Virus record (IMG/VR): IMGVR_UViG_3300010885_026047
Coordinates: 49,640-113,639 of that record
DNA: 64,000 bases
Direction: 5' to 3' (one strand)
Source of the DNA: a virus
Below the pieces are notes generated by a model. The model saw only the letters and a program-made list of their open reading frames with translations, ran no database searches and was not told the DNA's origin. The position numbers were made by a program, and so were the translations under genes. How positions within the stretch are numbered: the stretch's first letter is position 1; the number at the start of each line of letters is the position of its first letter. Shown piece by piece: positions 17,452-41,178 of the stretch.

Positions 17452-17453
17452 TT

Positions 17454-17657
17454 ATGGAACCAAAGAAGTACTGGTGGATACACTACGATAGAGTTGGTAT
17501 ACAGATGTACCGTGAAAAAGAAACTGTTATAGATATACATCCGTTTCTATGGTTAAGTGAAACGAAAAAACAAATGAAGTGGGAAGTCTGGTTAGTGAAC
17601 TGGAAGTTGATAGACGTAACTGAGTATAACCTTTGGAAAGAACTAAACGATAAGTAG
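17454..17657 (+). CDS. Small Trp-rich hypothetical protein
   Basis: 67 aa, tightly packed in the operon. Confidence 0.65.
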   Translation: MEPKKYWWIHYDRVGIQMYREKETVIDIHPFLWLSETKKQMKWEVWLVNWKLIDVTEYNLWKELNDK

Positions 17658-18475
17658 TGCTAAAGTTTCAAGAACAAAACCATCTATACTTTTCTCCTGA
17701 TCAACCAGACAGAAAGTGGACTTCTATCACTGCGATAGTTGGGATGTTGCATGAACCGTTTAAGAGAGAAGATACTGCTTGGAAGTGTGCTCTGAGAAAA
17801 CCTACAGACAAGTACCCGAACAAATGGTGGGGTATGACACAAGAACAGATACTTGCTGCTTGGGATGGAGAAGGTAAACGTAGCCAGGAACTCGGAAACT
17901 GGTATCACAACAAACGGGAAAGAGAACTTTGTGAGCCTGATAACCAGTTGATGTGGGGAGTAAGACCTCCAATAGTTGAAGATGGTATAAAGATATCCCG
18001 TGATCAGAAACTTGAAGATGGTATATACCCTGAACACTTAGTCTATCTTGACACTGCAGGTATCTGTGGACAGAGTGACTATGTTGAGGTTAAAGAACAC
18101 TCACTGAGGATACGAGACTACAAAACTTCCAAAGAGATCAAAAGAAAAGGTTTTGAGAGTAGTTGGTCTGGAGAGAAGATGATGACTGGTCCGGTAAAAC
18201 ATCTTGGAGACTGTGAGTACTGGCACTATGCTTTACAACTTTCTCTCTATGCTTACTGTATACAGAGACATAACCCAAGACTTACACATGTAGACTTAGC
18301 TGTAGAACATATAAAGTTTGTTTTGGAAGGAGAAGATAAGTTTGGCTATCCCATTGTTCTTAGACATATCAACGGAGACCCCGTAGTTAAAGAGATAGAA
18401 CTTGTCCAACTCCCATACTTACTGAAAGAGGTCAAAGCAGTTTTAGAGTGGCTTAAAACAAAACAAAAGGACTGA
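17657..18475 (+). CDS. PD-(D/E)XK (RecB/Cas4-like) exonuclease
   Basis: G...H, PEHLVY, GICGQSD, IRDYKT, YALQLSLYAY. Confidence 0.85.
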   Translation: MLKFQEQNHLYFSPDQPDRKWTSITAIVGMLHEPFKREDTAWKCALRKPTDKYPNKWWGMTQEQILAAWDGEGKRSQELGNWYHNKRERELCEPDNQLMWGVRPPIVEDGIKISRDQKLEDGIYPEHLVYLDTAGICGQSDYVEVKEHSLRIRDYKTSKEIKRKGFESSWSGEKMMTGPVKHLGDCEYWHYALQLSLYAYCIQRHNPRLTHVDLAVEHIKFVLEGEDKFGYPIVLRHINGDPVVKEIELVQLPYLLKEVKAVLEWLKTKQKD

Positions 18476-19587
18476 TGAGGATACAAGTAGTAGCAAGACA
18501 TAAGCAGGGTTGCGACTGGTTCAGATGTGTTCTACCAGCTATATATCTACAGAAAGATATAGAGTGGTGTAAGAACAACTCTATAGAGATGCTATGGATA
18601 GCTCACGATGAACTGAAGATAGACTGTGACATACTTATCTACAACAAACTTATAGCTACTACTATAGAACGTTTAAAGCACCTGAAGAAGAACGGCATGA
18701 AGATAGTGGTAGACGTAGACGATCACTGGATACTTCCTCCCGGACATGCTCACTACCAACAGTGGATGACTTGTACAGAACCAGGACAAACCAAGAGTAA
18801 CTCTGAACTAACTGAAGAACACATGAGACTGGCAGATGTAGTTACTTGCACATCTATGAGACTGCAGGAAGTTATCAGGAAGTTCAACAAGAACACAGTA
18901 GTTATACCAAACGCTCTCCCCTTCGGTCATGGGTTATACCAGCAGGGTATCAGGGAACCAAACGATAAGATGGTGTTTCTCTATGCCGGAGGGGTTAGTC
19001 ACTTACCTGATGTAGAACTACTAAAGGGGAAGTTTCAACGCATAGGCACTGACCCCTACTTAGTACAGAGAGCAGAGTTCGTACTTGCCGGATACGAGAA
19101 AGAGAAACAGAAGTTATACAAAACCAAACAGGACTACGAACAGAGAAATAGTAACTTTACAACCAAAGATATACATGGCCTCTATGACGATATGGTAAGT
19201 ATCTTTAAACAGACCAATAGTTACAAAGTTATAAATTCAGAACCTGTAAACAAGTATATAAGTTGTTATGATCAGGCAGATGTAGTACTTGCACCTCTGG
19301 TAGAAAACACCTGGAACTCGTTCAAGAGCAACTTAAAAGTTCTTGAAGCAAGCTCAAGAGAACTGCCGATCATATGTTCTGCAGTAGCTCCATATTCTGA
19401 CCTTAGACCTTGTGAAGGGATCATGTTTGTAGAAAAGTCATCTGACTGGATAGACTATATCAGAAAGTGTGTGAAAGAACCACAGTGGACAAAAGATATG
19501 GGTTTACAGTTAGCAAGTTGGATAAGAGAAGAGTACAACCTTGTAAGGTGGAACTTAGTAAGACAACAGTTATATAGTACTTTATAG
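18475..19587 (+). CDS. GT-B fold glycosyltransferase (GT4-like)
   Basis: G..WFR..LP, VVDVDDHW, VIPNA, ADVVLAPL.....N.FKSNLKVLEA...LPIICS. Confidence 0.85.
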   Translation: MRIQVVARHKQGCDWFRCVLPAIYLQKDIEWCKNNSIEMLWIAHDELKIDCDILIYNKLIATTIERLKHLKKNGMKIVVDVDDHWILPPGHAHYQQWMTCTEPGQTKSNSELTEEHMRLADVVTCTSMRLQEVIRKFNKNTVVIPNALPFGHGLYQQGIREPNDKMVFLYAGGVSHLPDVELLKGKFQRIGTDPYLVQRAEFVLAGYEKEKQKLYKTKQDYEQRNSNFTTKDIHGLYDDMVSIFKQTNSYKVINSEPVNKYISCYDQADVVLAPLVENTWNSFKSNLKVLEASSRELPIICSAVAPYSDLRPCEGIMFVEKSSDWIDYIRKCVKEPQWTKDMGLQLASWIREEYNLVRWNLVRQQLYSTL

Positions 19588-19588
19588 T

Positions 19589-19792
19589 ATGAACATGATA
19601 GCAAGATACAGACTAAGAGCAGCTATACAGTTCCATATCATCATGAGAGATAACGCTATCTATGCAACACATCATGGTATATGTATAGGTTCTCCAAGTC
19701 ACGATGTCTATGTTAAGATGCAAAGTGATACTGCAGAAAGAGAACAGAGATGTATAAACCGTATAGAGAAACTTTTAAAACGATATAAGTGA
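19589..19792 (+). CDS. Small hypothetical protein
   Basis: 67 aa in operon. Confidence 0.55.
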   Translation: MNMIARYRLRAAIQFHIIMRDNAIYATHHGICIGSPSHDVYVKMQSDTAEREQRCINRIEKLLKRYK

Positions 19793-20349
19793 TAAAACTG
19801 TTTGACATAAGTGGAGGTAAAGTGATCCCAAGTGAGCATGTGTATGTCATACCTCGGCTAAAGAAGATCATGGAACTATACCCAGATCAGTACCTGGAGA
19901 TATATAGTTACTTGTTCTACACTACATGTCCTGATAGTACTATGAACCCATATGTCAACCAACCTGAAGATATGAGAGAAGAGGTTATCATAGCAGACCT
20001 TGGACCATCTTTCTCTCTTGACGATAAGGTTATAGAAGAGACAAGAAAGTGGTGTGAGAAGATGTACGAGACACCTACACTACGATCCTGGAGAGGTGCC
20101 AAGAAGATGCTGGATAAGGTTGGTATATACCTGGCAGATAGCGAGATAACAGACGGTAAGGACACTAATGGTATGTTGATAGACAGGTTTATGAGCAAGC
20201 TTGGAGACTATCATGACATCTACAAGAAGATGGATAACGAAGTAAAAGAAGAACAAGCCAAAGTCCGAGGCAATGTAAAAATACCGTATTTCCAGCGACC
20301 AGGGTACATAGATAAAAAACAAGAAGACGATGATAACACTGAAGGATAA
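19789..20349 (+). CDS. Conserved crAss-like protein, candidate terminase small subunit
   Basis: MIKLFDI..GKVIPSEH...YETPTLR...KVRG resembles the gene I recall lying next to terL in crAss-like phages; the TerS role is inference. Confidence 0.55.
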   Translation: MIKLFDISGGKVIPSEHVYVIPRLKKIMELYPDQYLEIYSYLFYTTCPDSTMNPYVNQPEDMREEVIIADLGPSFSLDDKVIEETRKWCEKMYETPTLRSWRGAKKMLDKVGIYLADSEITDGKDTNGMLIDRFMSKLGDYHDIYKKMDNEVKEEQAKVRGNVKIPYFQRPGYIDKKQEDDDNTEG

Positions 20350-20378
20350 ACATCCCGTAACCGGAGAACAACTTGACG

Positions 20379-20966
20379 ATGAGTGAACCACTAGTAACTT
20401 TTATAGCTGTCTGTCACAACGAGGTAAGACATAACAGACCCTTCATAGACTCTATGCTCAGTCAGATAGACACTAACTGGAAAGCTATCGTATATCATAA
20501 TGGTCCAAACGAAAGGATGAAAGAATGGGTAGAGAGTTACCATGACGAAAGACTTATCTACATGGAGAGTGCTGTAGATGAAGGTAACTGGGGTACTGCT
20601 AACCGACAGAGAGCTATAGATACCTGTACCACATCTTATATAGTACAAACTTCTATACAAGACTACTGGCTACCCCAAGCCGTGAAGTATATCAACGAGA
20701 CTATAGTAAAACATGACCCGCAGATAATGGTATGGGATAGCATCAACCACTTAGTAGGACCTTGTCTGAAGTTGGATGGTCAACTTGCATGGAGTAAGTG
20801 TGACTGGGGTCAGTTTGCTTTAAAGACATGGATAGCTAAGAAGGTAGGTATAAAAAGAGGCGATGTGTATTGTGGAGACTGGGCTTTTGTAGAAGAGGTA
20901 CTGAAGTCAGGATATATAAGTAAACAACCTATAAAACTCGGAGCAATCCTGACATGTCATAACTAG
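20379..20966 (+). CDS. GT-A fold glycosyltransferase (GT2-like)
   Basis: LVTFI..., SMLSQ...W..IV, N.G..NR...I, GDW.F. Confidence 0.75.
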   Translation: MSEPLVTFIAVCHNEVRHNRPFIDSMLSQIDTNWKAIVYHNGPNERMKEWVESYHDERLIYMESAVDEGNWGTANRQRAIDTCTTSYIVQTSIQDYWLPQAVKYINETIVKHDPQIMVWDSINHLVGPCLKLDGQLAWSKCDWGQFALKTWIAKKVGIKRGDVYCGDWAFVEEVLKSGYISKQPIKLGAILTCHN

Positions 20967-20971
20967 AAACT

Positions 20972-21109
20972 ATGAAAGAAGTAGGAGATACTATAACTAT
21001 AAAAGCTGATGATGGAAGTCAGGAAACTGGAACTATCTATGCAATAGTTTCTGGACACTACTGGGTAAACTTTTCTTTTGGTTCACTTGCAATACGGATA
21101 GACTTATGA
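20972..21109 (+). CDS. 45-aa SH3/KOW-like small protein (not in ORF track)
   Basis: MKEVGDTITIKADDG..ETGTI...YWVNF..*; ATGA overlap with the next gene. Confidence 0.5.
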   Translation: MKEVGDTITIKADDGSQETGTIYAIVSGHYWVNFSFGSLAIRIDL

Positions 21110-21780
21110 AGAACATACCATGTATACTTATAAATCGTGACCGACTTTCTTGTACAGAGAAGTTAGTTGATCAGTTACTCTTACTAGGTTACACAAACTT
21201 GTATATCTTAGATATGGATAGTAGTTATCCGACTCTCCTGTCTTGGTACAAAGACAACAAAAACTTCACTCTTATACAGTCAGAGAACACCGGACACAAA
21301 ACTTTGTGGGAGAAAAACCTGTTACGTAACTTGTTTTCAGAACATGAGTGGGTTGCAGTTACAGACTCCGATATAGCTTTGTCTCCAGATACACCAAAAG
21401 GTTTTATAGAGCAGATGATAACTGTAGCTAAGGACTTCAGAACAGATAAAGTTGGTTTGGCTATAAAGTACAAAGACATAACAAACCCTCACTTGTTCAA
21501 GATCATAGAACCGATAGAGAGTAACTACTGGAAGAACAGGTTACCCCATCCAAGATATACTACATACTCGGCACCTGTAGACACCACTCTCTGTGTAGTG
21601 AGACCAAACAAACCTTTTCAGTACCAGGCTGTGAGGTTAGCTGACTGGTCTATACAACATCTTGACTGGTACATGGACTTTGAGAAGTTAACAGAAGAGC
21701 AGACTTACTACTTTGAACACGCAGATCCAAAGGTATCAACAACTAAACAACACTATCTGAAGTGGAAAAACAAGGGCTGA
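21106..21780 (+). CDS. GT-A fold glycosyltransferase (GT2-like)
   Basis: INRDR...LVD.L, ILD.DSSYP, VTDSD (DxD), APVDTT. Confidence 0.75.
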   Translation: MKNIPCILINRDRLSCTEKLVDQLLLLGYTNLYILDMDSSYPTLLSWYKDNKNFTLIQSENTGHKTLWEKNLLRNLFSEHEWVAVTDSDIALSPDTPKGFIEQMITVAKDFRTDKVGLAIKYKDITNPHLFKIIEPIESNYWKNRLPHPRYTTYSAPVDTTLCVVRPNKPFQYQAVRLADWSIQHLDWYMDFEKLTEEQTYYFEHADPKVSTTKQHYLKWKNKG

Positions 21781-22430
21781 TAGTCATCACGTATAGAGAT
21801 AGAGCAACACATCTATCTTGTTTGTTATCCCAGTTACAAAAGTACTGGCCTCAGTTCGATGTCTGTATCTGTGAGCAGTTGGATAGTTCCACATGGAACA
21901 AAGGTCTGTTGTACAACGTTGGGTTTAAAGAACTCGGTTATAAGTATGACTATCTGATACTACACGATGTAGACTTTATACCTGCATGGGATGAAGTAGA
22001 CTATAGCTTTACAGAAGTACCCTGTATGATAGCTGGAGCAGCTTCACAGTTTAACTATCAGTTACAGTTTCCTACTTTCTTTGGTGGAGTACTTACCTGC
22101 AGTAAAGAACACTACGAACTTGTGAACGGTTTCTCTAACCAGTTCAAAGGTTATGGGGGAGAGGACTGCAGTTTCAGAAACAGTTTTGTAGAGAAAGGTT
22201 TACAGCCAGGGGTTAAGATGGGAAGGTTTGAGTGTTTCGCACATCCTAAGCCAGACATATCCATAGGTAGTGAGTTCTGGAAGTCAGAAGACTACCAACA
22301 TAACTGGAAACTGGTACATCAACCAAGAGACTTTAACGAGGGGCTTTCAACAGTAAGTTACAAGCTAACGGAACAAACTATACAAAACAACATCACACAC
22401 TTATATATAGACACATGTCAAAGAACTTAG
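21762..22430 (+). CDS. GT7 beta-1,4-galactosyltransferase-like
   Basis: YRDR..HL, WNKGLLYNVGF, HDVD..P, FFGGV, NGFSN.F.GYGGED. Confidence 0.9.
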   Translation: MEKQGLIVITYRDRATHLSCLLSQLQKYWPQFDVCICEQLDSSTWNKGLLYNVGFKELGYKYDYLILHDVDFIPAWDEVDYSFTEVPCMIAGAASQFNYQLQFPTFFGGVLTCSKEHYELVNGFSNQFKGYGGEDCSFRNSFVEKGLQPGVKMGRFECFAHPKPDISIGSEFWKSEDYQHNWKLVHQPRDFNEGLSTVSYKLTEQTIQNNITHLYIDTCQRT

Positions 22431-23569
22431 GAGTTATCGGTATCGGCAAACTTGGACTATCTTTTGCACTACTTGCAGAAGAGTCAGGTTATACAGTTAT
22501 AGGTTGTGATAACCGACTGGACTATGTACACTCTTTGAACGAGAGAACTTACACTTGCTCAGAACCTTATATCAACCAGTATCTACAAACCTATCAGAGG
22601 TTTAGAGCAGAAGCTAACTTGTTCAATGTAGTAAACACCTGTGATATACTTTTCTGCTTTGTAGCCACACCTTCTTTACCTGATGGTTCTTATGACCACA
22701 GTGCTATAGAAAGTGTAGTAGCGGATATACAGAGACTTCACGTACAAGGTCTGCAGATGGACAACAAAGTACTGGTTATCGGTTGTACCACTATGCCGGG
22801 TTATACACAGACTGTAGCAGCTATGTTAGAGTCTACAGGTATGAAAGTAGCTTATAACCCGGAGTTTATAGCACAAGGTTCCATAGTAGACGGTTTGAGA
22901 AACGCAGATATGGTTCTGATGGGAGTGTCTGAAGACAGTACTTATCACTCCTTACAAGCTATCTATAGAACTATCATGACTAAAGAACCACTGATATCCA
23001 GGATGTCACCAACTGCTGCCGAGATAACCAAGATCTCCATCAACTGTTTTCTAACCATGAAGATAGCTTACGCAAACATGATAGGTGAGATAGCTATCAA
23101 CTCTAACTTAGAACCTGAAGTACCTACTATACTACAAGCTATAGGTTCAGATACACGGATAGGTTATAAGTATCTCAACTATGGTTTTGGATACGGTGGA
23201 CCATGTTTACCCAGAGACATGAGAGCTTTAGGTGTGTACATGGAAGATCTTGGTATCAAAGCACGTATACCTTCTGCAGTAGACAACACAAACGACTTTC
23301 ACTCTGAGTACCTGACACGATACTTTATAGCACAAAACCCAAACAAAGAAGTACCTTTCCAGTTCACACAACTTACCTACAAACGAGGTGTAGATATGTT
23401 AGTAGAGAGCCAACAGTACAAACTTTGTCTGAAGTTGTTACACATGGGATACTCAGTAGCTATAGACGAGAGCGATAACGTACTTATCCAAGTGAAACCG
23501 GAACTTGAACAGTACGGAGACAGAGTGATATATGGAGTAGTAGATAATGCATACAAGATAAGTATATGA
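22415..23569 (+). CDS. ugd: UDP-glucose/GDP-mannose 6-dehydrogenase
   Basis: GIGKLG Rossmann motif, V.TP, YNPEF, AE..K...N.FL..KI..AN, GYGGPCLPRD. Confidence 0.9.
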   Translation: MSKNLGVIGIGKLGLSFALLAEESGYTVIGCDNRLDYVHSLNERTYTCSEPYINQYLQTYQRFRAEANLFNVVNTCDILFCFVATPSLPDGSYDHSAIESVVADIQRLHVQGLQMDNKVLVIGCTTMPGYTQTVAAMLESTGMKVAYNPEFIAQGSIVDGLRNADMVLMGVSEDSTYHSLQAIYRTIMTKEPLISRMSPTAAEITKISINCFLTMKIAYANMIGEIAINSNLEPEVPTILQAIGSDTRIGYKYLNYGFGYGGPCLPRDMRALGVYMEDLGIKARIPSAVDNTNDFHSEYLTRYFIAQNPNKEVPFQFTQLTYKRGVDMLVESQQYKLCLKLLHMGYSVAIDESDNVLIQVKPELEQYGDRVIYGVVDNAYKISI

Positions 23570-23656
23570 TAGGATTTATTGCTACAAAGTACAATCTATA
23601 TGTGCTGAAACTACAGAGGAATTACAAACGAAAAATGAGACACAAACGACTGATAT

Positions 23657-24445: not shown

Positions 24446-24455
24446 TAAGGTTACT

Positions 24456-25163: not shown

Positions 25164-25172
25164 ACTACAAAA

Positions 25173-26714
25173 ATGGACAATAGAAAGATCTCCATATGTA
25201 TACCTTCATGGAATAGGTATCAACTTACTATTGATTCTGTCATTCAGGTAATAGATGATAGTAGAATAAGTGAGATAGTTATAGTTGATGACTGCAGTAC
25301 TAATGGTGAAGGTGTTAGGCTACAAGAGTCCTACAGTGGTAACCCAAAAGTGAAGTTCTACACAAACCCTGTTAACTTAGACTGTTACCGGAACAAACAC
25401 GAAGCAGTACACAAAGCAAGTAACGAGTGGTGTATACTATTTGATAGTGACAACGTTCTGACTACACAGTATATAGATACTTTGTTTGCTATATCTGACT
25501 GGGACAAACAGACTATCTATCAACCTTCTTTTGCAAGACCTCACTTTGACTTCAGACCACATGCAGGTATAACTTTCACTTACGAGAACATAGCTGACTA
25601 TATACATACCAATGTTATGACAGCTATGAACGCTATGAACTTCTTCATAAACAGAAGTGAGTATCTTAGAGTTTGGGACGGTTCTATAGACCCTGTTACC
25701 AGTGACAGTATCTACTTCAACTACTGTTGGTTACTGGCAAGAAACAAGTTCTACATAACACCGGGACTTGAGTACGACCACTTAGTACACAGAGGTCACT
25801 ACCAGGATAACGTACATAGAACCGGAAACTTTCACAACGAACTACTTGAAAAGATAAGACATATCAGAAACCATATGCCACAGATAGAAACAGTACAAGA
25901 ATCAGTTATAGAGCAAGTCACAAACGCTGTAGAAGTGTCAGACAAGATAAGTATGGATACTATCTACGCTGCTTATGTGAACCTATCTATCCGACCAGAC
26001 AGGAATGAGCACATGATACGAGAGTTGACAAGAGTAGGTTTACCTATAGAACGGTTTAACGCTTTTACACCTGACGAGGTCTACAAGTTTATACCTGCAG
26101 ACAAGTTACAAGCTATGGAACGAAGAGGTACGAGAGGTGCTATAGGATGCCACTACGGACAAGTAGCTATCATGGAAGAAGCACTGAAGAGAGGTCAGTC
26201 AGCTTGGGTTCAAGAAGACGATCTCGTTTACTGTGACGATATACAAGACCGGTTAAAAGTTATCTTCGACTATCTGAACACTCATGAATGGGATATCTTC
26301 TGGTTAGGTGGAACGTATCATAAAGACGCAACATGGCACAAGTCAGAGAACGGCAGACACACTCACCCTGATCTGCAGATGTGTACCTGTACGTTGAACA
26401 GAGACTGGGAACCTACAGATAACCAGGATATAGTTAGAACCTATGGAGCTTTTAGTACACATAGTTATATAGTAAACGTAAAGAGTTTACCAAAGATCCT
26501 TGACCTGTTAGACCAAAACGTTTACAGGAGCATGGGCATCGACTGGATCATGCTTTTGATACAACCAGAGCTACACACCTTTGCTCACAGTTACGGTTGT
26601 GCTAAACAGTTTGATAACCAGAGCAACATAGGTTCAGGTATAAGTTACTTTTCCGGCTTCGTTAACTTAGGCTCACATTGGTTTTTAAAAGATATGAAGG
26701 ATGCAAATAGATAG
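25173..26714 (+). CDS. GT2 + GT25 fusion glycosyltransferase
   Basis: N-terminal ISICIP.WNR, IVDDCST, FDSDN; C-terminal YVNL..RPDR, GAIGC..G, QEDD, STHSYIV. Confidence 0.85.
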   Translation: MDNRKISICIPSWNRYQLTIDSVIQVIDDSRISEIVIVDDCSTNGEGVRLQESYSGNPKVKFYTNPVNLDCYRNKHEAVHKASNEWCILFDSDNVLTTQYIDTLFAISDWDKQTIYQPSFARPHFDFRPHAGITFTYENIADYIHTNVMTAMNAMNFFINRSEYLRVWDGSIDPVTSDSIYFNYCWLLARNKFYITPGLEYDHLVHRGHYQDNVHRTGNFHNELLEKIRHIRNHMPQIETVQESVIEQVTNAVEVSDKISMDTIYAAYVNLSIRPDRNEHMIRELTRVGLPIERFNAFTPDEVYKFIPADKLQAMERRGTRGAIGCHYGQVAIMEEALKRGQSAWVQEDDLVYCDDIQDRLKVIFDYLNTHEWDIFWLGGTYHKDATWHKSENGRHTHPDLQMCTCTLNRDWEPTDNQDIVRTYGAFSTHSYIVNVKSLPKILDLLDQNVYRSMGIDWIMLLIQPELHTFAHSYGCAKQFDNQSNIGSGISYFSGFVNLGSHWFLKDMKDANR

Positions 26715-28734
26715 TAGAAAGCAGTTAGGAGACTTGATAAAGCACTTAGGTTTAACCAAAGGTGTTGCTGAGATAGGTGTAGCAGAAGGCTCGTTCTCAT
26801 CACAGATCATAGAGTGGGGGACTTTTCCACTTTACTTAGTAGACAGGTGGTTATCTGTGCCTGAAGACTATGGAGATAGTGGTTTTGACCAGGAGTGGCA
26901 CGATACAAACTACAGGTCAGTGCTTGAGAGAACGCAACCTCATGGAGGCAAGTGTATAGTCTTGAGAGGGGATAGTTCGGAAATGGCTAACTCTGTACCG
27001 GATAACTCTTTATCTTTAGTCTATCTGGATGCAAACCATACCTATGAAGGAGTTAAACGAGACATAGAAGCATGGTATCCAAAGGTTGAAGAAGGTGGTA
27101 TCATAGCAGGGCATGACTACTTCAGTCAGGACTACGGGGTGCATACAGCTATAAACGAGTTTGTGAACGGAAGGTTTGATATCATACCTATACCTGAGAA
27201 CGAACTAAACAACGCATCTTTTTACTTTATAAAACGACAAAAACAAAAAACAATGGCAGTAACATGTTACTTTTCAGGAAGATTGGGAAACATCTTTTAC
27301 AACATAGCGATGTTGATAGCTTACGCAAAAAAGCACAACTTACAGTACTATATACCCACAGAAGCTATAGCTTGTACTAACCGGGTTCCAACTATAACAG
27401 TTCCATCTACAGGACCTAAACCGGTGAACCCAAGTGTGTATAGAGAACCGAACATGTCTCAAGGTAACCCGTACTATCACGAGATACCTTATATGGACAA
27501 CGTGCTCTTTGATGGCTACTACCAGTCCTTCAAGTACTTTAACTGGTGCAGACAGGATGTACTGGATGCTTTTAACCTGCCACATGTAACAGAGTATGGA
27601 GTAGTGGGTGTATCTGTACGGAGAGGTGACTGTGTAGGTTCTGAACCGTTCCCCATGGCCCCTACTATCTACTATCACAGAGCTATAGAGCACATGCAGA
27701 AACTAGGACATAACCACTTCCGTTTGTATAGTGATGATATACCTTGGTGCAAAGAAGAGTTTACAACAGTCAACTATCCAGGAGCAACCTTTGAGTTTTC
27801 TGAAGGTAGAACAGAACTGGAAGACTATACATCACTTACACAGTGCGAACATAACATAACTGCACGAAGTACGTTCTCTCTGACGGCAGCATGGATGAAC
27901 CAGAACCCGGACAAGATAGTACTTGTACCACAAGAGAACATGTGGTGGAAGAGCCAGAACAGAAACCTGTTAACAGACAGTGGGTTTACACAGATCTTCT
28001 TTCCGCAAGAGTATCATCCTCACATGCTGAAGTACACTTACACTTATAAGGACATCAGTTTCAAGCTTATCATACAGAACTACTGGAAAGACATCTATAG
28101 AGGTGTGGAACAAGAACCTTTGTACCCGGACTACTGCAAGATGTTAGACCTTGTACAGCAGTGTAGTAAAGACAGATATGTGTTGGATATAGGTGCAAAT
28201 CACGGTATCTTTGCTGTACCTTGTTCTCTGTTAGGATATAAAGTGTTAGCGTTTGAACCAGTAGAAAGAAACGTAAACAGTATACAGTTAGCAGCTATAG
28301 AAAACAAACTTACTAACTTTACCATATGCCCATATGCTCTTTCTGACAAGACTGAAACTATAGATATCTACGTACCGGAGTGTTCAGATAACGCCTCTTT
28401 GAGTAAAGACGCTTCTATCTCAAACATGATAAAGAAAGACTACAGTACAGAGACTATACAGTGTGTAAGGTTTGATGACTGGATAAAAGAGTACGAAGTA
28501 TATAAAGATATAGGCTTTATCAAACTTGATGTACAGGGAGCAGAGTACAAGATAGTAGAAGGTATGAAAGAGTTCCTGGAACAAGCACATAACCTTACTG
28601 TAGTGTGTGAGTATGAACACCATTTAGTTACTATGGGCCACTCTTTTGAACAGATGGACAACCTGTTTACTTCTTTAGGTTTCGAGTACAAAGGACATTT
28701 AACACCAAACGATAAGATCTTTTACAAAGCATAA
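26701..28734 (+). CDS. Triple fusion: Methyltransf_24 + GT11 (alpha-1,2-fucosyltransferase-like) + FkbM
   Basis: EIGVAEG/YLDANHTY/GHDY; GRLGN/GYYQS..YF/VSVRRGD/YSDD..W/STFS; LDIGANHG/FEP/KLDVQGAE. Confidence 0.88.
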   Translation: MQIDSRKQLGDLIKHLGLTKGVAEIGVAEGSFSSQIIEWGTFPLYLVDRWLSVPEDYGDSGFDQEWHDTNYRSVLERTQPHGGKCIVLRGDSSEMANSVPDNSLSLVYLDANHTYEGVKRDIEAWYPKVEEGGIIAGHDYFSQDYGVHTAINEFVNGRFDIIPIPENELNNASFYFIKRQKQKTMAVTCYFSGRLGNIFYNIAMLIAYAKKHNLQYYIPTEAIACTNRVPTITVPSTGPKPVNPSVYREPNMSQGNPYYHEIPYMDNVLFDGYYQSFKYFNWCRQDVLDAFNLPHVTEYGVVGVSVRRGDCVGSEPFPMAPTIYYHRAIEHMQKLGHNHFRLYSDDIPWCKEEFTTVNYPGATFEFSEGRTELEDYTSLTQCEHNITARSTFSLTAAWMNQNPDKIVLVPQENMWWKSQNRNLLTDSGFTQIFFPQEYHPHMLKYTYTYKDISFKLIIQNYWKDIYRGVEQEPLYPDYCKMLDLVQQCSKDRYVLDIGANHGIFAVPCSLLGYKVLAFEPVERNVNSIQLAAIENKLTNFTICPYALSDKTETIDIYVPECSDNASLSKDASISNMIKKDYSTETIQCVRFDDWIKEYEVYKDIGFIKLDVQGAEYKIVEGMKEFLEQAHNLTVVCEYEHHLVTMGHSFEQMDNLFTSLGFEYKGHLTPNDKIFYKA

Positions 28735-28743
28735 ACAAACTAT

Positions 28744-30219
28744 ATGATACGAGAAGACAAGTTACACACAAAAACCGCTATACTGTTTTCAGGAAGTGCT
28801 TACAATGTGAAGTTCTCCCTGCAGTCACAACTGGAGAACTTCATCCTACCTAACAACGCTGATGTCTTTATACTGACAGAGAGACGTTGTAAGAACAGAA
28901 AAACGGTCCATGGAGTTATCCCTGATGGCTTTGACCCATACTGGCATGAGAAAGCAGCAACTATAACCCATGAAGAGACTGAACTATCTGATAACGATAT
29001 ACAGTTTATCAAAGACACTTTAGGGGACAGGTTAAAGGGTTTCTATCTGAAAGATGATATGTCTGACTATGTAAACTATCTCAGGAACCAGAGAAGTAAG
29101 ATGATGGAGATAGCTAACAACTACCGTCAGTATAACATAGACAACAACTTACCTAAGAGTTTTGGTTTTGCTATAGGTAACCCTGATGATGGTAACCTCC
29201 GGTGTGTAGTAGACCAGTATGGACATGTTCGTAAGTGCTTTGAGTTGATGGCAGAGTACGAACAACAGCACGGTTTTAAGTATGACTATGTAGTTCGTGC
29301 CCGGATAGACTTTATAGTACCTGACGTGATAGACGTAGAACAGTATACGCTCAACCACGACCAACAGTACTTGTATGTTATGGGCAGTGTTAACCGTGAT
29401 CCTTTTGAGTTTGCTGACGAGTTCTGTTGGTTCTGTAAACGACCTATGGCAGATAAGCTCTTTCCATATCTGGACAGGTTGGGTATGTTAGATGACCGGA
29501 AGTATAAGACTTACCTGGAAGAACAAGCTAACGACTTCAGGTTTGGAGCAGAGACACAGTGGGCTATCTTGTTGAAAGAGTTACAGTTACCTATCATAAA
29601 CGTAAAGATCTTTAGGTCAGCTAAGTTTACAGATGGACAAGACGGATATGACTACATGAACTATATGTATCGGTGGGACATGACCAACATAGAAGAGGAG
29701 TATAAGTTAGTTTGCGACTGTCCAAGTGATATCAACGAACACTTACCAAAACTACGTGAGTATGGAGAGCAGTGTACACATATAACTGAACTTGGAACAC
29801 GGTGGGGTAACAGTACTATAGCTTTTATGGCAGCAAAACCTGGTAAGTTTGTATCTTACGATGTGCAGTACAACTCCCGGATAGACTACCTGAAAAGAGT
29901 AGCTAAGGACAACGAGATAAACTTCCACTTCCGGTTAGAGAACGTAGAACAGGTAGAACTGGAAGAAACAGACCTGCTCTTTATAGACACAAACCACCAT
30001 GTAGAACAGTGCAGTGAGGAACTCAGACTACATGCAGATAAAGCAAAGAAGTTTATAGTTTTCCATGACACAACTACTTTCTGGGAGAAGGGACAAGGGC
30101 ATGAAGTCGGTCACGGTTTGAAGTATGCTATAGAACCGTTCTTAGAGCAACACCCAGAGTGGGTACAAGACTACCGAGCTATGAACAACAACGGTTTACT
30201 GATACTGAAGAGGATATGA
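28744..30219 (+). CDS. GT-like domain + C-terminal Methyltransf_24-like domain
   Basis: TAILFSG, ADVFI, YDYVVRARID; then SDINEHL, ELGTR.G.ST, DLLFIDT.H, VFHDT. Confidence 0.75.
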   Translation: MIREDKLHTKTAILFSGSAYNVKFSLQSQLENFILPNNADVFILTERRCKNRKTVHGVIPDGFDPYWHEKAATITHEETELSDNDIQFIKDTLGDRLKGFYLKDDMSDYVNYLRNQRSKMMEIANNYRQYNIDNNLPKSFGFAIGNPDDGNLRCVVDQYGHVRKCFELMAEYEQQHGFKYDYVVRARIDFIVPDVIDVEQYTLNHDQQYLYVMGSVNRDPFEFADEFCWFCKRPMADKLFPYLDRLGMLDDRKYKTYLEEQANDFRFGAETQWAILLKELQLPIINVKIFRSAKFTDGQDGYDYMNYMYRWDMTNIEEEYKLVCDCPSDINEHLPKLREYGEQCTHITELGTRWGNSTIAFMAAKPGKFVSYDVQYNSRIDYLKRVAKDNEINFHFRLENVEQVELEETDLLFIDTNHHVEQCSEELRLHADKAKKFIVFHDTTTFWEKGQGHEVGHGLKYAIEPFLEQHPEWVQDYRAMNNNGLLILKRI

Positions 30220-30701
30220 TAGTGCAGTTTAAAGAACAGTTAGGGGACTTACTGAGAGAGCTAAACCTACCACTTACAGTACTGATGATAGGTGTGGGAG
30301 ACGGAACTTTCGCCAAACAAGTTATGGACTGGGGGACTACTAGGTTATACTTGGTAGATAAGTGGGAAGGTTACGAACTCGATGACTCTTATCTGGGTGA
30401 CTGGTTTGAAAACCCTTTGTTACAGGTAAGAGATAAACTGGCTATATACGACAAGAGACCAGAGCAGTATCTTATCCTGCAGGGAGACGAGAAAGAAACT
30501 CTGGAACATATACAGGACCAAAGTGTATCTCTGGTATATATGGATCAGGAAACCGTAGACAGAGAACTTATAGAACTATCTCTGGAGAAACTGGTAAACG
30601 GTGGTATCTTTGCATGTAAGTACAACGAAAGTGGTATAGAGCAACTATACAAGCTTATAGATATACCAAGAGATAGAAGTGGTTACTTTATAAAACAATA
30701 A
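30216..30701 (+). CDS. Degenerate Methyltransf_24 paralog
   Basis: Resembles the N-domain of 26701 (QLGDL...L.L, IGV..G.F, LYLVD.W, SLVY.D, GGI.A) but lacks the D..H and HD residues. Confidence 0.7.
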   Translation: MIVQFKEQLGDLLRELNLPLTVLMIGVGDGTFAKQVMDWGTTRLYLVDKWEGYELDDSYLGDWFENPLLQVRDKLAIYDKRPEQYLILQGDEKETLEHIQDQSVSLVYMDQETVDRELIELSLEKLVNGGIFACKYNESGIEQLYKLIDIPRDRSGYFIKQ

Positions 30702-30704
30702 CTT

Positions 30705-31853
30705 ATGAACATACTCATAACCGGATCTGGAGGTTTTGTTGGCGGTCATCTTTGTAAACGACTTTTAGAAGAAGGTCATACTGTTATAGGTGCAGATATC
30801 AAACCTATAACCGACTGGGATCAGTATAACTGTACAGACCATCACATAGTAGATCTTAGAGATCAGTCAGCTATCGTATCTTTGTTTGGTTTATATGGTG
30901 TTTTTGACGAAGTATATACTTTAGCAGCAGACATGGGAGGTGCCGGTTACATCTTTACTGGAGAGCACGATGCTGATGTTATGCACAACTCGGCACAGAT
31001 AAACCTAAACATAGCAAAAGCATGTGTTGACTATAAAGCAGGGAGAGTGTTCTACAGTAGTTCAGCTTGTATGTATAACCAAGACTATCAAGACGATCCG
31101 GCTAACCCTGGTTTAAAAGAGTATATGGGATGGCCTTTAAACCCTGATAGTGAGTACGGTGTAGAGAAAGGTTTCTCTGAACGTCTCTACAAAGCCTTTG
31201 AGAGAAACTACGGACTAACTGTACGGATAGCCAGGTTCCATAACATTTTCGGTCCACAAGGTACTTGGAAAGGTGGTAAAGAGAAAGCACCTGCAGCTAT
31301 ATGTAGAAAGGTTGCTGAGACACTTGAAGGTCCTCCAAAACACTACAAAAAGCTTACATGGGTAAAAGAGAATGGATCTACGGTACAGGACATAGTAAAC
31401 ACTAACTATACTATAACATATCCTCCTGTTTATAACACACTTATAAACGGTGAGAAAACTGCTGAAACTCTTGTACAAGGAGAACACTTAGACGATCTTT
31501 TTATACCGGGGACTATAGATATCTGGGGAGACGGTAAACAAACACGTAGCTTTCTCTACATAGATGAGTGTATAGATGGGGTTATAAAACTGATGAGATC
31601 TGACTGTACAGATATAGTCAACATAGGTTCTGATGAGATGATCTCTATAAATGATCTGGCAAAGATGGTTATAGATATATCAGGTAAGAACTTAACTATC
31701 AACAACATAGATGGTCCTACCGGTGTAAGAGGGCGTAACTCCAACAACGATCTTATCTTTGAGAAACTTAACTGGAAACCGACACAACCACTTCGTACAG
31801 GTATGGAGAAACTTTATAACTGGGTAAACGAACAGGTATGCAGCAACAAGTAA
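30705..31853 (+). CDS. GDP-mannose 3,5-epimerase-like NAD-dependent epimerase with internal insertion
   Basis: GSGGFVG, LAADMGGAGYI, YSSSACMY, YGVEK, RFHNIFGP.GTW.GGKEKAPAA.CRK, WGDG.QTRSF, GVRGRNS.N. Confidence 0.9.
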   Translation: MNILITGSGGFVGGHLCKRLLEEGHTVIGADIKPITDWDQYNCTDHHIVDLRDQSAIVSLFGLYGVFDEVYTLAADMGGAGYIFTGEHDADVMHNSAQINLNIAKACVDYKAGRVFYSSSACMYNQDYQDDPANPGLKEYMGWPLNPDSEYGVEKGFSERLYKAFERNYGLTVRIARFHNIFGPQGTWKGGKEKAPAAICRKVAETLEGPPKHYKKLTWVKENGSTVQDIVNTNYTITYPPVYNTLINGEKTAETLVQGEHLDDLFIPGTIDIWGDGKQTRSFLYIDECIDGVIKLMRSDCTDIVNIGSDEMISINDLAKMVIDISGKNLTINNIDGPTGVRGRNSNNDLIFEKLNWKPTQPLRTGMEKLYNWVNEQVCSNK

Positions 31854-34304: not shown

Positions 34305-34305
34305 T

Positions 34306-41157: not shown

Positions 41158-41178
41158 TTCAAACTAAAAACATTGAAC

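What the first reader, a model, noticed from the sequence alone, without database searches (positions are those of the whole stretch)
18475..31853. Self-contained glycan synthesis and methylation island wired into the packaging operon
Seen: about 8 glycosyltransferase domains (GT-B, three GT2-like, GT7, GT25, GT11, one GT-like), 5 methyltransferase domains (two FkbM, three Methyltransf_24-like, one degenerate), a nucleotide-sugar dehydrogenase and a GDP-mannose 3,5-epimerase. They are tightly coupled, and most lie between the candidate small terminase and terL. No flippase, polymerase, undecaprenyl-phosphate transferase or obvious TM segments are present. Most of the island follows the AAT purge, so it looks long resident. 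Established: the epimerase makes GDP-L-galactose/L-gulose, GT11 uses GDP-L-sugars, the dehydrogenase makes uronic acids, and some actinobacteriophages and giant viruses glycosylate virions with their own GTs. Inference: a cytoplasmic pathway builds a methylated oligosaccharide on virion proteins (the Ser/Thr-rich fibres are candidates) or, less likely, on DNA or the host surface. A pathway this complete would be unusual for a crAss-like phage.
Basis: partly seen in the sequence, partly recalled or inferred. Interest (0 to 1): 0.85.

Follow-up and report, generated by a model that had tools for sequence, protein, structure and literature searches.

The report
Phage glycan-building, sugar-methylating gene cassette
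A freshwater crAss-like phage and its closest relatives carry, wedged between two DNA-packaging genes, a 13-kb set of soluble enzymes that should build and methylate a short sugar chain, most likely on the phage's own particle proteins; this has not been described for this phage group, but it resembles untested gene sets in cyanophages and proven ones in giant algal viruses.

Summary
Window 18475-31853 encodes seven supported glycosyltransferase domains plus one weak one. It also encodes five methyltransferase domains (one degenerate), a nucleotide-sugar dehydrogenase and a clear GDP-mannose 3,5-epimerase (GME).

No island protein has a membrane helix, and the 113.6-kb record holds no polytopic membrane protein. 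The cassette is not self-contained: it has no sugar-activating enzymes.

It is not an assembly artefact. It shares the genome's AAT/ATT purge, except a ~1.8-kb tract around one FkbM gene. Independent assemblies of relatives carry shuffled versions in the same slot. On a terL tree these phages form one clade, while 74 relatives lack the cassette.

Parts have homologues in the cyanophage S-SSM7 sugar cluster (GME, dehydrogenase next to NadE) and in a phi92 glycosyltransferase cluster. The transferase-methyltransferase fusions recall chlorovirus A064R.

The GME carries an in-frame copy of the portal's SH3-like wing loop, which in ΦcrAss001 binds a cargo protein.

Best reading (~0.45): late, cytoplasmic glycosylation of virion proteins. 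Host-envelope remodelling is the main rival (~0.3). DNA glycosylation is unlikely. The target is untested. I class it as a new variant of a known kind.

The parts
17657..18475 (+). Flank: PD-(D/E)XK exonuclease-like core gene. Its stop overlaps the start of the GT-B gene.
   Evidence: phrog_298 E 1.3e-17. Homologues in 57 of 80 related loci, always upstream of g02.
18475..19587 (+). g01: GT-B fold glycosyltransferase (GT4-like), 370 aa. Candidate first (acceptor-priming) transferase.
   Evidence: Pfam Glyco_trans_1_4 E 1.5e-5. 55% identical in L003 and 45% in L005 at the same place. 31% identical over 97% of its length to phi92 gp164, annotated GT-B, inside a four-GT cluster.
19589..19792 (+). 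Small ORF, 67 aa, filling the GT-B/g02 gap. Function unknown.
   Evidence: no Pfam match. L005 has a 77-aa ORF at the same place.
19789..20349 (+). g02: conserved 186-aa core protein, not a glycan gene. Candidate small terminase by position only.
   Evidence: Homologues in 68 of 80 loci, always the last conserved gene before terL. No PDB or PHROG annotation.
20373..20966 (+). g03: short divergent GT2-like (GT-A) protein without a canonical DxD.
   Evidence: Pfam GT2 E 1.3e-4. NCBIfam WcaA/TuaG N-terminal region. SIQD in place of DSD. Homologues in L003 and two in L005.
20972..21109 (+). Small ORF, 45 aa. Function unknown.
21106..21780 (+). g04: 224-aa protein, possibly GT-A-like (weak evidence).
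   Evidence: Pfam Anp1 E 0.007. Atlas neighbours at 0.95-0.96, one cluster with GT2 in 14% of members. 56% identical in L003.
21762..22430 (+). g05: GT7-like (beta-1,4-galactosyltransferase-type) glycosyltransferase.
   Evidence: Pfam Glyco_transf_7C E 2.7e-16 and 7N E 1.1e-13. 51% identical in L003 and L006. No match in 50,697 phage records.
22415..23569 (+). g06: NAD-dependent nucleotide-sugar 6-dehydrogenase that makes a uronic acid. Substrate not resolved.
   Evidence: TIGR03026 209 bits, over cut-off. Pfam N and central domains. PDB matches: UDP-Glc dehydrogenases at 1e-34 to 1e-26, GDP-Man dehydrogenase at 2e-23. 45% identical to S-SSM7 gp259.
23657..24445 (+). g07: NH3-dependent NAD(+) synthetase (NadE family).
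   Evidence: Pfam NAD_synthase E 2.6e-47. TIGR00552 171 bits. PDB 3fiu E 1.4e-36. 48% identical to S-SSM7 gp258, which there also lies next to the dehydrogenase.
24456..25163 (+). g08: FkbM-family methyltransferase. Lies in the tract that is not AAT-purged, so probably a recent import.
   Evidence: PF05050 E 3.2e-17. TIGR01444 E 4.4e-25. 35 AAT/ATT against 40 expected; GC 0.349. 50% identical to the FkbM half of the L006 FkbM-GT25 fusion.
25173..26714 (+). g09: two-domain glycosyltransferase, GT2 (aa 1-230) + GT25 (aa 260-505).
   Evidence: Pfam GT2 E 9e-14 and GT25 E 1.7e-10. DSD motif present. The two halves are separate genes or fused differently in L003 and L006.
26701..28734 (+). g10: three-domain enzyme, Methyltransf_24 (aa 1-178) + GT11 fucosyltransferase-like (aa ~181-436) + FkbM methyltransferase (aa ~480-677).
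   Evidence: Pfam E 9.3e-13, 6.2e-15 and 1.7e-19. Motif I reads SVRRGD. The three domains are separate genes in L003 and L006.
28744..30219 (+). g11: two-domain enzyme, GT-A-fold domain (aa 1-315, DUF7796) + class I SAM O-methyltransferase (aa 316-491).
   Evidence: AF2 models with pLDDT 93.9 and 93.6. C-terminal domain Z 18.9 to 8c9v and 17.1 to the sugar O-methyltransferase MeT1. N-terminal domain Z 10.8/10.7/10.6 to BoGT6a, Mnn9 and SpsA, and Foldseek GT6 at E 5e-4. 622 homologues of ~490 aa in metagenomes.
30216..30701 (+). g12: degenerate Methyltransf_24 paralogue. The ORF opens at GTG 30159; the likely start is ATG 30216, overlapping the g11 stop.
   Evidence: Pfam E 9.8e-4. Alignment shows deletions at the conserved D-x-x-H-x-Y-E-G and H-D-Y blocks.
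30705..31853 (+). g13: GDP-mannose 3,5-epimerase with catalytic residues aligned.
   Evidence: E 1.3e-86 to 2c59, next family 4.5e-23. Alignment keeps the Cys, Tyr-x3-Lys and Lys catalytic positions. 58% identical in L003. 46-53% identical in T4-like cyanophages.
31317..31520 (+). In-frame ~61-aa insertion in GME (aa ~205-270), homologous to the SH3-like wing loop of the phage portal.
   Evidence: 42% identical to the phage's own portal aa 393-453, E 7e-12. The same segment matches the portals of 57 relatives. It aligns with ΦcrAss001 gp20 ~333-383, the wing loops 337-380 that bind cargo protein gp45 (PMC10172136). It is shared by three other phage GMEs.
31838..32059 (+). Small ORF, 73 aa, bridging the GME stop and the terL start. 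Function unknown.
   Evidence: L003 has a 113-aa ORF at this place.
32049..34304 (+). Flank: large terminase.
   Evidence: phrog_6681 E 1.7e-58. 22-26% identical to Crassvirales TerL.
23546..25302 (.). Tract with normal AAT/ATT density inside a purged genome: a recent recombinational import covering NadE (partly), FkbM and the first 130 nt of g09.
   Evidence: Positions listed; per-gene counts. Depth and identity of public contigs are even across it.

Best explanation
This is a clade-specific accessory cassette of soluble enzymes, inserted in the cargo slot between the conserved g02 gene and terL.

Proposed working:
1. The host supplies GDP-mannose, a UDP- or GDP-hexose and SAM.
2. The epimerase turns GDP-mannose into GDP-L-galactose and/or GDP-L-gulose.
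3. The dehydrogenase makes a uronic-acid sugar nucleotide. NadE next to it supports its NAD demand or acts in the same step.
4. Seven or eight glycosyltransferase domains add sugars one by one to a non-lipid acceptor in the cytoplasm. They are GT-B, GT2-like, GT7, GT25, a GT11 that would take the GDP-L-sugar, and a GT6-like GT-A domain.
5. Four intact O-methyltransferase domains, three of them fused to transferases, methylate and cap the chain.

The most likely acceptor is one or more virion proteins, made at the same time from the same gene block. The particle would then leave the cell carrying a small methylated heteroglycan.

Shown: gene content, solubility, position, conservation and shuffling.
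Inferred: donor sugars, order of steps, late expression and the acceptor.
For: - Domain identities.
- No TM helix in any island protein, and no polytopic membrane protein in the whole 113.6-kb record. A lipid-linked initiation, flipping or export step cannot be phage-encoded.
- Same strand as the packaging genes, with overlapping or abutting stops and starts from the exonuclease gene through terL. There is no excess of terminator-like sites. Portal and capsid genes follow directly.
- The cassette shares the genome's AAT/ATT purge.
- It is present, reshuffled, in all five phages of the clade whose upstream DNA is held, and absent from 74 others and from two near-complete relatives.
- Fusions of transferase and methyltransferase (g10, g11) match the architecture of chlorovirus A064R, whose GT-GT-MT domains were shown to build and methylate the capsid glycan (PMC9614988).
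- Atlas neighbours of g11 are viral GT+Methyltransf_24 fusion families. This is a lead only.
- The GME carries a copy of the portal SH3-like wing loop, which in ΦcrAss001 binds cargo protein gp45. It is kept in four diverged GMEs. This hints at a physical link to head assembly.
- In two relatives a ~330-aa N-terminal domain with a weak glycosyltransferase-like signature is fused to GME.
- For virulent phages, remodelling an abundant surface glycan within one lytic cycle has been argued to be futile (PMC11990801).
Against: - There is no direct evidence for any acceptor.
- The capsid protein has no Ser/Thr-rich C-terminal extension of the kind glycosylated in mycobacteriophages, and no feature that tracks the cassette.
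- No recognisable protein-priming transferase was identified.
- GT2, GT4-like, GT11, GT25, FkbM and RfbT-like enzymes are typical of O-antigen and lipo-oligosaccharide clusters.
- The homologous cyanophage clusters are usually read as host cell-wall modification genes, though untested (PMC12801897).
- Late expression is inferred from gene order only; no RNA data exist.
- g03 lacks DxD, g12 is degenerate, and GT11 motif I has Ser for His. Some parts may therefore be inactive.
Confidence: 0.45

Rival explanations
1. Host-envelope remodelling. The soluble phage transferases and methyltransferases act at the inner face of the membrane on the host's own undecaprenyl-linked O-antigen, capsule or general O-glycan intermediates. 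Host initiation, flipping and export then carry the altered, methyl-capped glycan to the surface. This could block superinfection or stop progeny sticking to debris.
For: - The families present (GT2, GT4-like, GT11, GT25, FkbM, RfbT-like hit E 1.5e-5) are those of O-antigen and LOS clusters.
- Such transferases are normally soluble or peripheral, so the lack of TM segments does not exclude this.
- GME, the dehydrogenase and NadE have 45-48% homologues in the S-SSM7 cluster. Related cyanophage gene sets are interpreted as cell-wall synthesis and modification genes (PMC12801897).
- Bacterial homologues of GME at ~50% identity come from Bacteroidota.
Against: - The cassette lies inside the packaging and structural block, not among early genes.
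- The phage looks virulent: it is crAss-like, and I noticed no integrase in the genes I annotated, though I did not search for one.
- Complete modification of an abundant surface glycan in one lytic cycle is argued to be futile (PMC11990801).
- There is no phage Gtr-type or other membrane component.
- The portal-derived module in GME has no obvious role in this model.
Confidence: 0.3
2. DNA hypermodification. The transferases glycosylate a modified base in phage DNA and the methyltransferases decorate the sugar, protecting the genome from restriction.
For: - Phage GT-B and GT-A enzymes glycosylate hydroxymethyl-pyrimidines, and multi-sugar DNA glycans are known (Pyle et al. 2024, cited in PMC12619734).
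- g01 homologues sit in phi92-like coliphages near replication genes.
- The genome shows a striking defence-like signature, the AAT purge.
Against: - No thymidylate-synthase-like hydroxymethylase and no TET/JBP dioxygenase was found in the record. The record is 88% complete, and the TET control rang nowhere.
- ThyX occurs only in one island-less relative.
- Eight transferase domains, an L-sugar and a uronic acid exceed any known DNA glycan.
- A genome that must purge a 3-mer is evidently still read by sequence.
Confidence: 0.05
3. A non-virion cytoplasmic product. The cassette makes a free methylated oligosaccharide, as in the mycobacterial methylmannose and methylglucose polysaccharide pathways, or it glycosylates a host protein or small molecule to redirect metabolism or defence.
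For: - All enzymes are soluble.
- The g11 methyltransferase domain is structurally close to MeT1 of the methylmannose polysaccharide pathway, Z 17.1.
- That pathway is cytoplasmic and carrier-free (my recollection of Ripoll-Rozada et al. 2019).
Against: - No hydrolase or other hallmark of those pathways is present.
- The diversity of transferase families argues for a hetero-oligosaccharide, not a homopolymer.
- No benefit to a lytic phage is evident.
- Rapid shuffling and import of capping methyltransferases fit a surface-exposed epitope better.
Confidence: 0.1
4. Assembly chimera: bacterial polysaccharide genes wrongly joined into a phage contig.
For: The contig comes from a metagenome. One 1.8-kb tract has a different k-mer signature.
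Against: - About 11.6 kb of the cassette carries the phage's own extreme AAT/ATT depletion.
- The same slot holds homologous cassettes in four other contigs, from separate IMG/VR sample records.
- Public contigs of a freshwater run cover 16500-34500 at 100% identity with even depth. Pieces bridge both outer junctions, with no joints or loose ends. That run may be the source sample, so this is not independent.
Confidence: 0.02

Closest known systems
Sugar / 'LPS' gene cluster of T4-like cyanophage S-SSM7 (NC_015287, ~199.9-211.7 kb) and the 'cell wall synthesis and modification' genes of S-SCSM2R, P-SSM2 and S-SCSM1
   Same: - A phage-borne block of nucleotide-sugar epimerases, a methyltransferase, several glycosyltransferases and a UDP-glucose dehydrogenase directly next to an NAD synthetase.
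- GME is 46% identical, the dehydrogenase 45%, NadE 48%, and the GT11-like part 22%.
- It is an aquatic phage, and the function is untested there too.
   Different: - The virus lineage differs (myovirus with a 233-kb genome), and the cluster lies in a hyperplastic region, not the packaging block.
- The enzymes are single-domain there. Here they are GT-MT and GT-GT fusions with five methyltransferase domains.
- GT7, GT25 and the g11 family have no homologue in any deposited phage.
- The cyanophage cluster is interpreted in the literature as host cell-wall modification (PMC12801897).
Chlorovirus PBCV-1 capsid glycosylation enzymes A064R (GT-GT-methyltransferase), A061L and A111/114R
   Same: - Virus-encoded, soluble, multidomain enzymes that fuse glycosyltransferase and SAM O-methyltransferase domains.
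- They build and methyl-cap an atypical glycan on the major capsid protein without the host's membrane machinery (PMC9614988).
- The A064R domain 1 structure 2p6w is among the fold matches of g11-N, Z 8.8.
   Different: - No detectable sequence homology.
- Eukaryotic algal host.
- The genes are scattered in PBCV-1 rather than in one cassette.
- The acceptor is proven there and unknown here.
Virion glycosylation of mycobacteriophages (Freeman et al. 2023, as cited in PMC12619734 and PMC12801897)
   Same: Phage-encoded glycosyltransferases that modify the phage's own capsid and tail-tube subunits. This is the only proven bacteriophage precedent for the proposed function.
   Different: - Few transferases, and no sugar-nucleotide or methylation enzymes as far as I recall.
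- The acceptors are C-terminal extensions, which this phage's capsid protein lacks.
- Gram-positive-type host.
- The primary paper is not held, so its details were not checked.
Four-glycosyltransferase cluster gp163-gp166 of coliphage phi92 and rV5-like relatives
   Same: g01 is 31% identical over 97% of its length to phi92 gp164, a GT-B enzyme that sits with another GT-B and two GT-A enzymes. The function there is also unknown.
   Different: It lies near lysis and replication genes and has no methyltransferases or sugar-nucleotide enzymes. Only one of the island's genes is shared.
Bacterial O-antigen / LOS clusters with terminal methylation (WbdD-type capping, V. cholerae RfbT, FkbM-family sugar methyltransferases)
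   Same: The same enzyme families (GT2, GT4, GT11, GT25, FkbM; RfbT hit E 1.5e-5), and the logic of sequential transfer followed by methyl capping.
   Different: There is no polyprenyl-phosphate glycosyl-phosphate transferase, flippase, polymerase, chain-length regulator or ABC exporter anywhere in the record.

Membership tests
GDP-mannose 3,5-epimerase (extended SDR) | Scores far better against characterised GME than against any other SDR sugar epimerase or dehydratase | tested here: met
   E 1.3e-86 (294 bits) to Arabidopsis GME 2c59 and 1.7e-86 to 8sg0. The best non-GME entry scores 4.5e-23.
GDP-mannose 3,5-epimerase (extended SDR) | N-terminal GxxGxxG NAD motif, catalytic Tyr-x3-Lys, and the Cys/Lys acid-base pair (Cys145/Lys217 in Arabidopsis numbering, recalled from Major et al. 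2005) | tested here: met
   In the residue-by-residue alignment, GSGGFVG, SSAC, YGVEK and KEKAP align with GAGGFIA, SSAC, YGLEK and REKAP of 2c59.
GDP-mannose 3,5-epimerase (extended SDR) | Converts GDP-D-mannose to GDP-L-galactose / GDP-L-gulose | not testable with these tools
   Needs an enzyme assay. The 61-aa insertion replaces a 5-residue loop after Arabidopsis residue 229, and its effect on activity is unknown.
GT11 alpha-1,2-fucosyltransferase family | Pfam PF01531 match above the gathering score | tested here: met
   55.6 bits against a cut-off of 23.9, but only profile positions 165-275 of 298 are covered.
GT11 alpha-1,2-fucosyltransferase family | Motif I HxRRGD (GDP-sugar binding; recalled) | tested here: inconclusive
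   The window has SVRRGD: RRGD is kept and His is replaced by Ser. L003 and L006 homologues have HFRRGD and HIRRGD.
Nucleotide-sugar 6-dehydrogenase (UDP-Glc/GDP-Man dehydrogenase family) | NCBIfam TIGR03026 above cut-off, with N-terminal NAD and central domains | tested here: met
   209.1 bits against 189.8. PF03721 E 3e-24 and PF00984 E 6.9e-22. The C-terminal domain was not detected by Pfam. The substrate is unresolved.
Lipid-carrier polysaccharide pathway (Wzx/Wzy or ABC-transporter O-antigen/CPS cluster) | Polyprenyl-phosphate initiating transferase, flippase/polymerase or ABC exporter (polytopic membrane proteins) encoded with the transferases | tested here: not met
   The highest 19-residue hydropathy in island proteins is 1.65, in the NadE P-loop strand. 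No ORF in the 113.6-kb record combines ≥300 aa with four or more TM-like segments.
Seroconverting Gtr-type phage glycosylation system | GtrA flippase, GtrB bactoprenol glucosyltransferase and GtrC-type membrane transferase | tested here: not met
   No polytopic membrane protein is present. GtrB appears only as a generic GT-A fold neighbour of g11-N, Z 9.1.
Phage DNA glycosylation (T4-type and hypermodifying systems) | A route to a hydroxymethylated or otherwise activated base (ThyA-like dNMP hydroxymethylase or TET/JBP dioxygenase) | tested here: not met
   PF00303 gave no match, with positive controls ringing in 10 of 14 genomes. PF12851 gave no match, but its control rang nowhere, so that half is inconclusive. 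The record is 88% complete.
Virus-encoded virion glycosylation (chlorovirus A064R type) | Soluble multidomain proteins that fuse glycosyltransferase and SAM methyltransferase domains | tested here: met
   g10 is MT24+GT11+FkbM. g11 is a GT-A fold plus an O-methyltransferase fold. There is no TM or signal-like segment.
Virus-encoded virion glycosylation (chlorovirus A064R type) | Glycan found on a virion protein | not testable with these tools
   Needs virions or co-expression with MS.
Mycobacteriophage-type virion glycosylation | Glycosylated C-terminal extensions on capsid / tail-tube subunits | tested here: not met
   In a capsid protein alignment with 12 relatives, no C-terminal extension or Ser/Thr-rich tag appears, and nothing is shared only by cassette-bearing phages. 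Tail proteins were not compared.
Small terminase (for g02) | Sequence or profile similarity to known TerS | tested here: inconclusive
   A profile of 35 homologues gives no PDB hit better than E 0.2 and no annotated PHROG. The only support is its conserved position directly upstream of terL.

The most novel reading that the evidence does not exclude
A clade of environmental crAss-like phages glycosylates its own virion or cargo proteins in the bacterial cytoplasm. The glycan would be methyl-capped and contain L-galactose (or L-gulose) and a uronic acid, and would be built by fused transferase-methyltransferase enzymes. The sugar-nucleotide epimerase is docked to head assembly, or packaged, through a domain copied from the portal's cargo-binding SH3-like wing loop. 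This would be the first virion glycosylation system in Crassvirales-like phages of Gram-negative hosts. It would also be the first case of a metabolic enzyme borrowing a portal module.
Probability: 0.3. Interest if true: 0.8.

Novelty: new variant of a known kind. Interest (0 to 1): 0.6.

Why it matters
Virion glycosylation by phage-encoded enzymes is proven only in a few actinobacteriophages and in giant algal viruses. Big sugar-gene clusters in cyanophages remain unexplained.

This cassette has three useful properties:
- It is compact, entirely soluble and clade-defining.
- It sits in the packaging block of an abundant but uncultured freshwater branch of crAss-like phages.
- Natural variants exist (reshuffled fusions, a recently imported capping methyltransferase, relatives without it) that amount to a ready-made comparative experiment.

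If the glycan sits on the particle, it would bear on how such phages avoid adsorption traps, grazing or host recognition. It would also supply new enzymes for methylated L-sugar glycans.

The portal-derived module in the epimerase is a concrete, testable handle on whether metabolic enzymes are recruited to, or packed into, crAss-type heads.

Tried and rejected
The contexts of the many terL, GME and g11 homologues from the large protein collection could therefore not be read.
- The search for related loci with terL alone found nothing. An alignment was needed.
- g02 as small terminase: no PDB or PHROG support.
- Capsid protein as acceptor: no tag or cassette-linked feature.
- Sigma-70 promoter and terminator scans: fewer sites than in shuffles, so uninformative for a Bacteroidota or phage-RNAP system.
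- No RNA holder listed for the stretch, so expression timing is untested.
- The insert alone, searched against 1.84 billion proteins, gave portals at E 1e-4 to 1e-5. A top hit, P0361, proved to be compositionally odd, with scattered meaningless Pfam matches. No third context for the module was found.
- The A2 profile against PDB sequences found nothing; fold search was needed.
- The IQ-TREE quick search did not finish, so the tree is FastTree only.
- Freeman et al. 2023 is not held, and its details are taken from citing papers.
- Literature searches for glycosyltransferase cassettes in crAss-like phages or Crassvirales found no relevant paper.
- The idea that NadE might amidate the uronic acid rather than make NAD was considered but not tested. 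The protein is an ordinary NadE-family member by sequence.

Full report
WHAT THE WINDOW IS. The window is bases 49640-113639 of a 113,639-bp IMG/VR virus record rated 88% complete. The large terminase is 22-26% identical to those of Crassvirales. Terminase, portal and major capsid protein match crAss-type PHROGs. The portal aligns end to end with ΦcrAss001 gp20. The only public run that holds the stretch is a freshwater metagenome. It is therefore a distant, environmental crAss-like phage.

GENE-BY-GENE CHECK. All genes from 15.5 kb to beyond 46 kb are on the + strand. The stated interval contains the following.

Glycosyltransferases:
- g01 (18475-19587) is GT-B. Its Pfam match is just under cut-off, but it is 31% identical over 97% of its length to phi92 gp164.
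- g03 is a short GT2-like protein with SIQD where GT2 has DxD.
- g04 has only weak GT-A leads.
- g05 is GT7.
- g09 is GT2 + GT25.

Sugar-nucleotide and cofactor enzymes:
- g06 is a nucleotide-sugar dehydrogenase. It passes TIGR03026, but its substrate is unresolved between UDP-Glc-type and GDP-Man-type.
- g13 is a GDP-mannose 3,5-epimerase (GME). It scores E 1.3e-86 against the plant enzyme and 4.5e-23 against the next family. The NAD motif and all four catalytic positions align.

Methyltransferases and fusions:
- g08 is FkbM.
- g10 is Methyltransf_24 + GT11 + FkbM. GT11 motif I reads SVRRGD.
- g11 was resolved by modelling. The whole-protein model has pLDDT 93.9, and the model of the N-terminal domain alone has 93.6. 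The C-terminal half is a class I O-methyltransferase: Z 18.9 to 8c9v and 17.1 to the sugar O-methyltransferase MeT1. The N-terminal 315 residues have a GT-A fold: Z 10.8, 10.7 and 10.6 to BoGT6a, Mnn9 and SpsA, with Foldseek GT6 hits at E 5e-4. Every one of the 50 best rows is a GT-A-fold enzyme.
- g12 is a Methyltransf_24 paralogue with deletions through conserved blocks, so it is degenerate.

Also inside the interval are the conserved non-glycan gene g02 (19789-20349) and three small ORFs that fill the apparent gaps.

SOLUBLE AND HOST-DEPENDENT. No island protein has a hydrophobic stretch of TM quality. No ORF in the whole record looks like a flippase, polymerase, ABC permease, initiating phosphotransferase or Gtr protein. 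The record also lacks any sugar-1-phosphate nucleotidyltransferase. The cassette therefore modifies host GDP-mannose and UDP-sugars, and 'self-contained' overstates it.

REAL AND RESIDENT.
- The genome has 1003 AAT/ATT where 3992 are expected from dinucleotides. Island genes have 0-9.7 per kb, like terL and the portal.
- The exception is g08, at 49 per kb (35 against 40 expected, GC 0.35). NadE is intermediate, and the first 130 nt of g09 are unpurged. The tract ~23546-25302 looks like a recent import.
- Public contigs of one freshwater run cover 16500-34500 at 100% identity with even depth. Pieces bridge both outer junctions, and there are no joints or loose ends. This run may be the source sample.
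- Independent support comes from relatives. An alignment-based scan of IMG/VR gave 80 loci with terL 44-59% identical.
- The core order is gm3 - exonuclease - g02 - terL - portal.

SHUFFLED VERSIONS IN RELATIVES. Homologous cassettes lie in the same slot in four contigs.
- L002/L003: GT-B | g02 | GT2-like | g04-like | GT7 | GT2 | GT11 | DUF5672-GT25 | MT24 | FkbM | GIY-YIG endonuclease | GME | terL.
- L006: ... GT7 | GT2 | GT11 | FkbM-GT25 | GT34 | MT24 | FkbM | GME | GT11-like | terL.
- L005, a small version: GT-B | g02 | GT2-like | GT92 | GT2-like | terL.

The same domains are thus separate, fused or reordered in different phages.

On a FastTree of terL, these phages plus L004 (upstream DNA missing) form one group with support 100, against 74 others. 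Two near-complete cassette-less relatives (94% and 99% complete) have no GME and no GT2 anywhere.

A CARGO SLOT. The g02-to-terL distance is -11 to 2606 bp in cassette-less relatives, 8272 bp in L002/L003 and 11,699 bp here. In other relatives the slot holds ThyX, PhoH, a lone GT-B-like gene or a GT2-like gene. The exonuclease-to-g02 junction also varies. The cassette therefore grew in a standing hot spot for auxiliary genes. That tempers the claim that it is 'wired into' packaging. Even so, stops and starts abut or overlap from the exonuclease gene through terL.

RELATION TO KNOWN SYSTEMS.
- Cyanophage S-SSM7 has a cluster with a GME homologue (46%), a methyltransferase, NadE (48%) directly next to a UDP-glucose dehydrogenase (45%), and four to five transferases.
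- GME homologues occur in 41 deposited phage records, all cyanophages or marine viruses.
- Large cyanomyoviruses with up to 13 transferases are described as carrying cell-wall synthesis and modification genes, without experiments (PMC12801897).
- phi92-like coliphages carry a four-transferase cluster that includes the g01 homologue.
- Chlorovirus A064R is an experimentally dissected GT-GT-methyltransferase acting on the capsid glycan, with A061L adding a second methyl group (PMC9614988).
- Mycobacteriophages glycosylate the C-termini of capsid and tail-tube subunits (cited in PMC12619734).
- GT7, GT25 and g11 have no or almost no homologues in 50,697 deposited phage genomes.
- Literature searches found nothing on sugar cassettes in crAss-like phages.

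THE PORTAL MODULE IN THE EPIMERASE.
- The GME match to the plant enzyme is split. Residues ~205-270 replace a five-residue loop.
- That segment is 42% identical (E 7e-12) to residues 393-453 of the phage's own portal. It hits the same portal position in 57 relatives.
- The portal segment aligns with ΦcrAss001 gp20 ~333-383. These are the SH3-like wing loops (337-380) that interdigitate with cargo protein gp45 inside the head (PMC10172136).
- Three other phage GMEs, 60-67% identical, carry the same insert. Most have only short variable loops there.
- The insert is AAT-purged like the rest of the gene.
- It is an old, maintained, in-frame domain graft. I could not test whether it docks the enzyme to cargo protein or head assembly.

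MECHANISM AND ODDS. The chemistry is inferred from family knowledge:
- GDP-mannose is converted to GDP-L-galactose or GDP-L-gulose.
- A hexose nucleotide is oxidised to a uronic acid.
- Sugars are transferred stepwise.
- The chain is O-methylated and capped.

The acceptor decides between readings.
- Virion or cargo protein, ~0.45. For it: the position in the structural block, a complete lack of membrane parts, the viral-type GT-MT fusions, the portal module, and the futility argument for lytic phages (PMC11990801). Against it: no identified acceptor tag and no expression data.
- Host lipid-linked glycans, ~0.3. This remains open because such transferases are soluble anyway and the families are typical of O-antigen clusters.
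- DNA glycosylation, ~0.05. I found no base-activating enzyme.
- A free cytoplasmic glycan or a host-protein target, ~0.1.
- Assembly chimera, ~0.02.

VERDICT. This is a new variant of a known kind (virus-encoded glycan cassettes) in a lineage where none was known. It comes with informative natural variation and one really odd feature, the portal module in GME.

Noticed in passing
window 31317-31520 (GME aa ~205-270); portal 36166-36348 (aa 393-453): The sugar epimerase carries an in-frame copy of the portal's SH3-like wing loop. It is 42% identical to the phage's own portal. In ΦcrAss001 this loop binds cargo protein gp45. The same graft occurs in three other phage GMEs (P0242, P0243, P0248).
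   Followed up: yes
window 22415-24445; L082 (S-SSM7) 19979-21899: The nucleotide-sugar dehydrogenase and NadE are neighbours both here and in cyanophage S-SSM7 (45% and 48% identity), in opposite order. This suggests a co-transferred or functionally coupled pair. NadE could supply NAD for the dehydrogenase or, speculatively, amidate the uronic acid. Its best PDB match is Francisella NadE (3fiu).
   Followed up: partly
window 23546-25302: A 1.8-kb tract with normal AAT/ATT density and lower GC lies inside the purged genome. It covers part of NadE, the FkbM gene and the first 130 nt of g09. It looks like a recent import from an unpurged relative; L006 has a 50%-identical FkbM fused to GT25.
   Followed up: partly
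window 34267-34977 and 41146-42096; L003 7680-8459; proteins P0002, P0027, P0028, P0040, P0111: Selfish nucleases riddle the packaging and head block. An HNH/NUMOD3 endonuclease lies between terL and the portal, and an HNH endonuclease lies after the capsid gene. L003 has a GIY-YIG/NUMOD3 endonuclease inside its cassette. Several relatives' terL genes carry Hint/homing-endonuclease (intein) domains.
   Followed up: no
L044 6037-6753; L061 9325-9987; L043 5080-6135; L033 3828-4916; L080 6003-6881: In cassette-less relatives the same g02-terL slot holds other cargo: ThyX, PhoH, lone GT-B-like genes and a GT2-like gene. The slot is a general hot spot for auxiliary genes, and single glycosyltransferases recur there.
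   Followed up: partly
window 39301-41040 (major capsid protein): The capsid protein has two Gly/Lys-rich loop insertions of about 13 and 18 aa. L004 shares them in part, and the other 11 relatives aligned, including cassette-bearing L003, L005 and L006, lack them.
   Followed up: no
P0341 (contig of the closest terL relative P0003) and P0255: In two relatives GME is fused to a ~330-aa N-terminal domain with a weak RXYLT1/exostosin-like glycosyltransferase signature (E 0.004). This would couple the L-sugar donor directly to a transferase.
   Followed up: partly
window 28744-30219 (g11 family): The GT-A + O-methyltransferase protein belongs to a large, well-conserved, unnamed family. It has 622 homologues of ~490 aa at 44-82% identity, on contigs up to 138 kb. 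Some are mislabelled 'cephalosporin hydroxylase'. None occurs in deposited phage genomes.
   Followed up: partly
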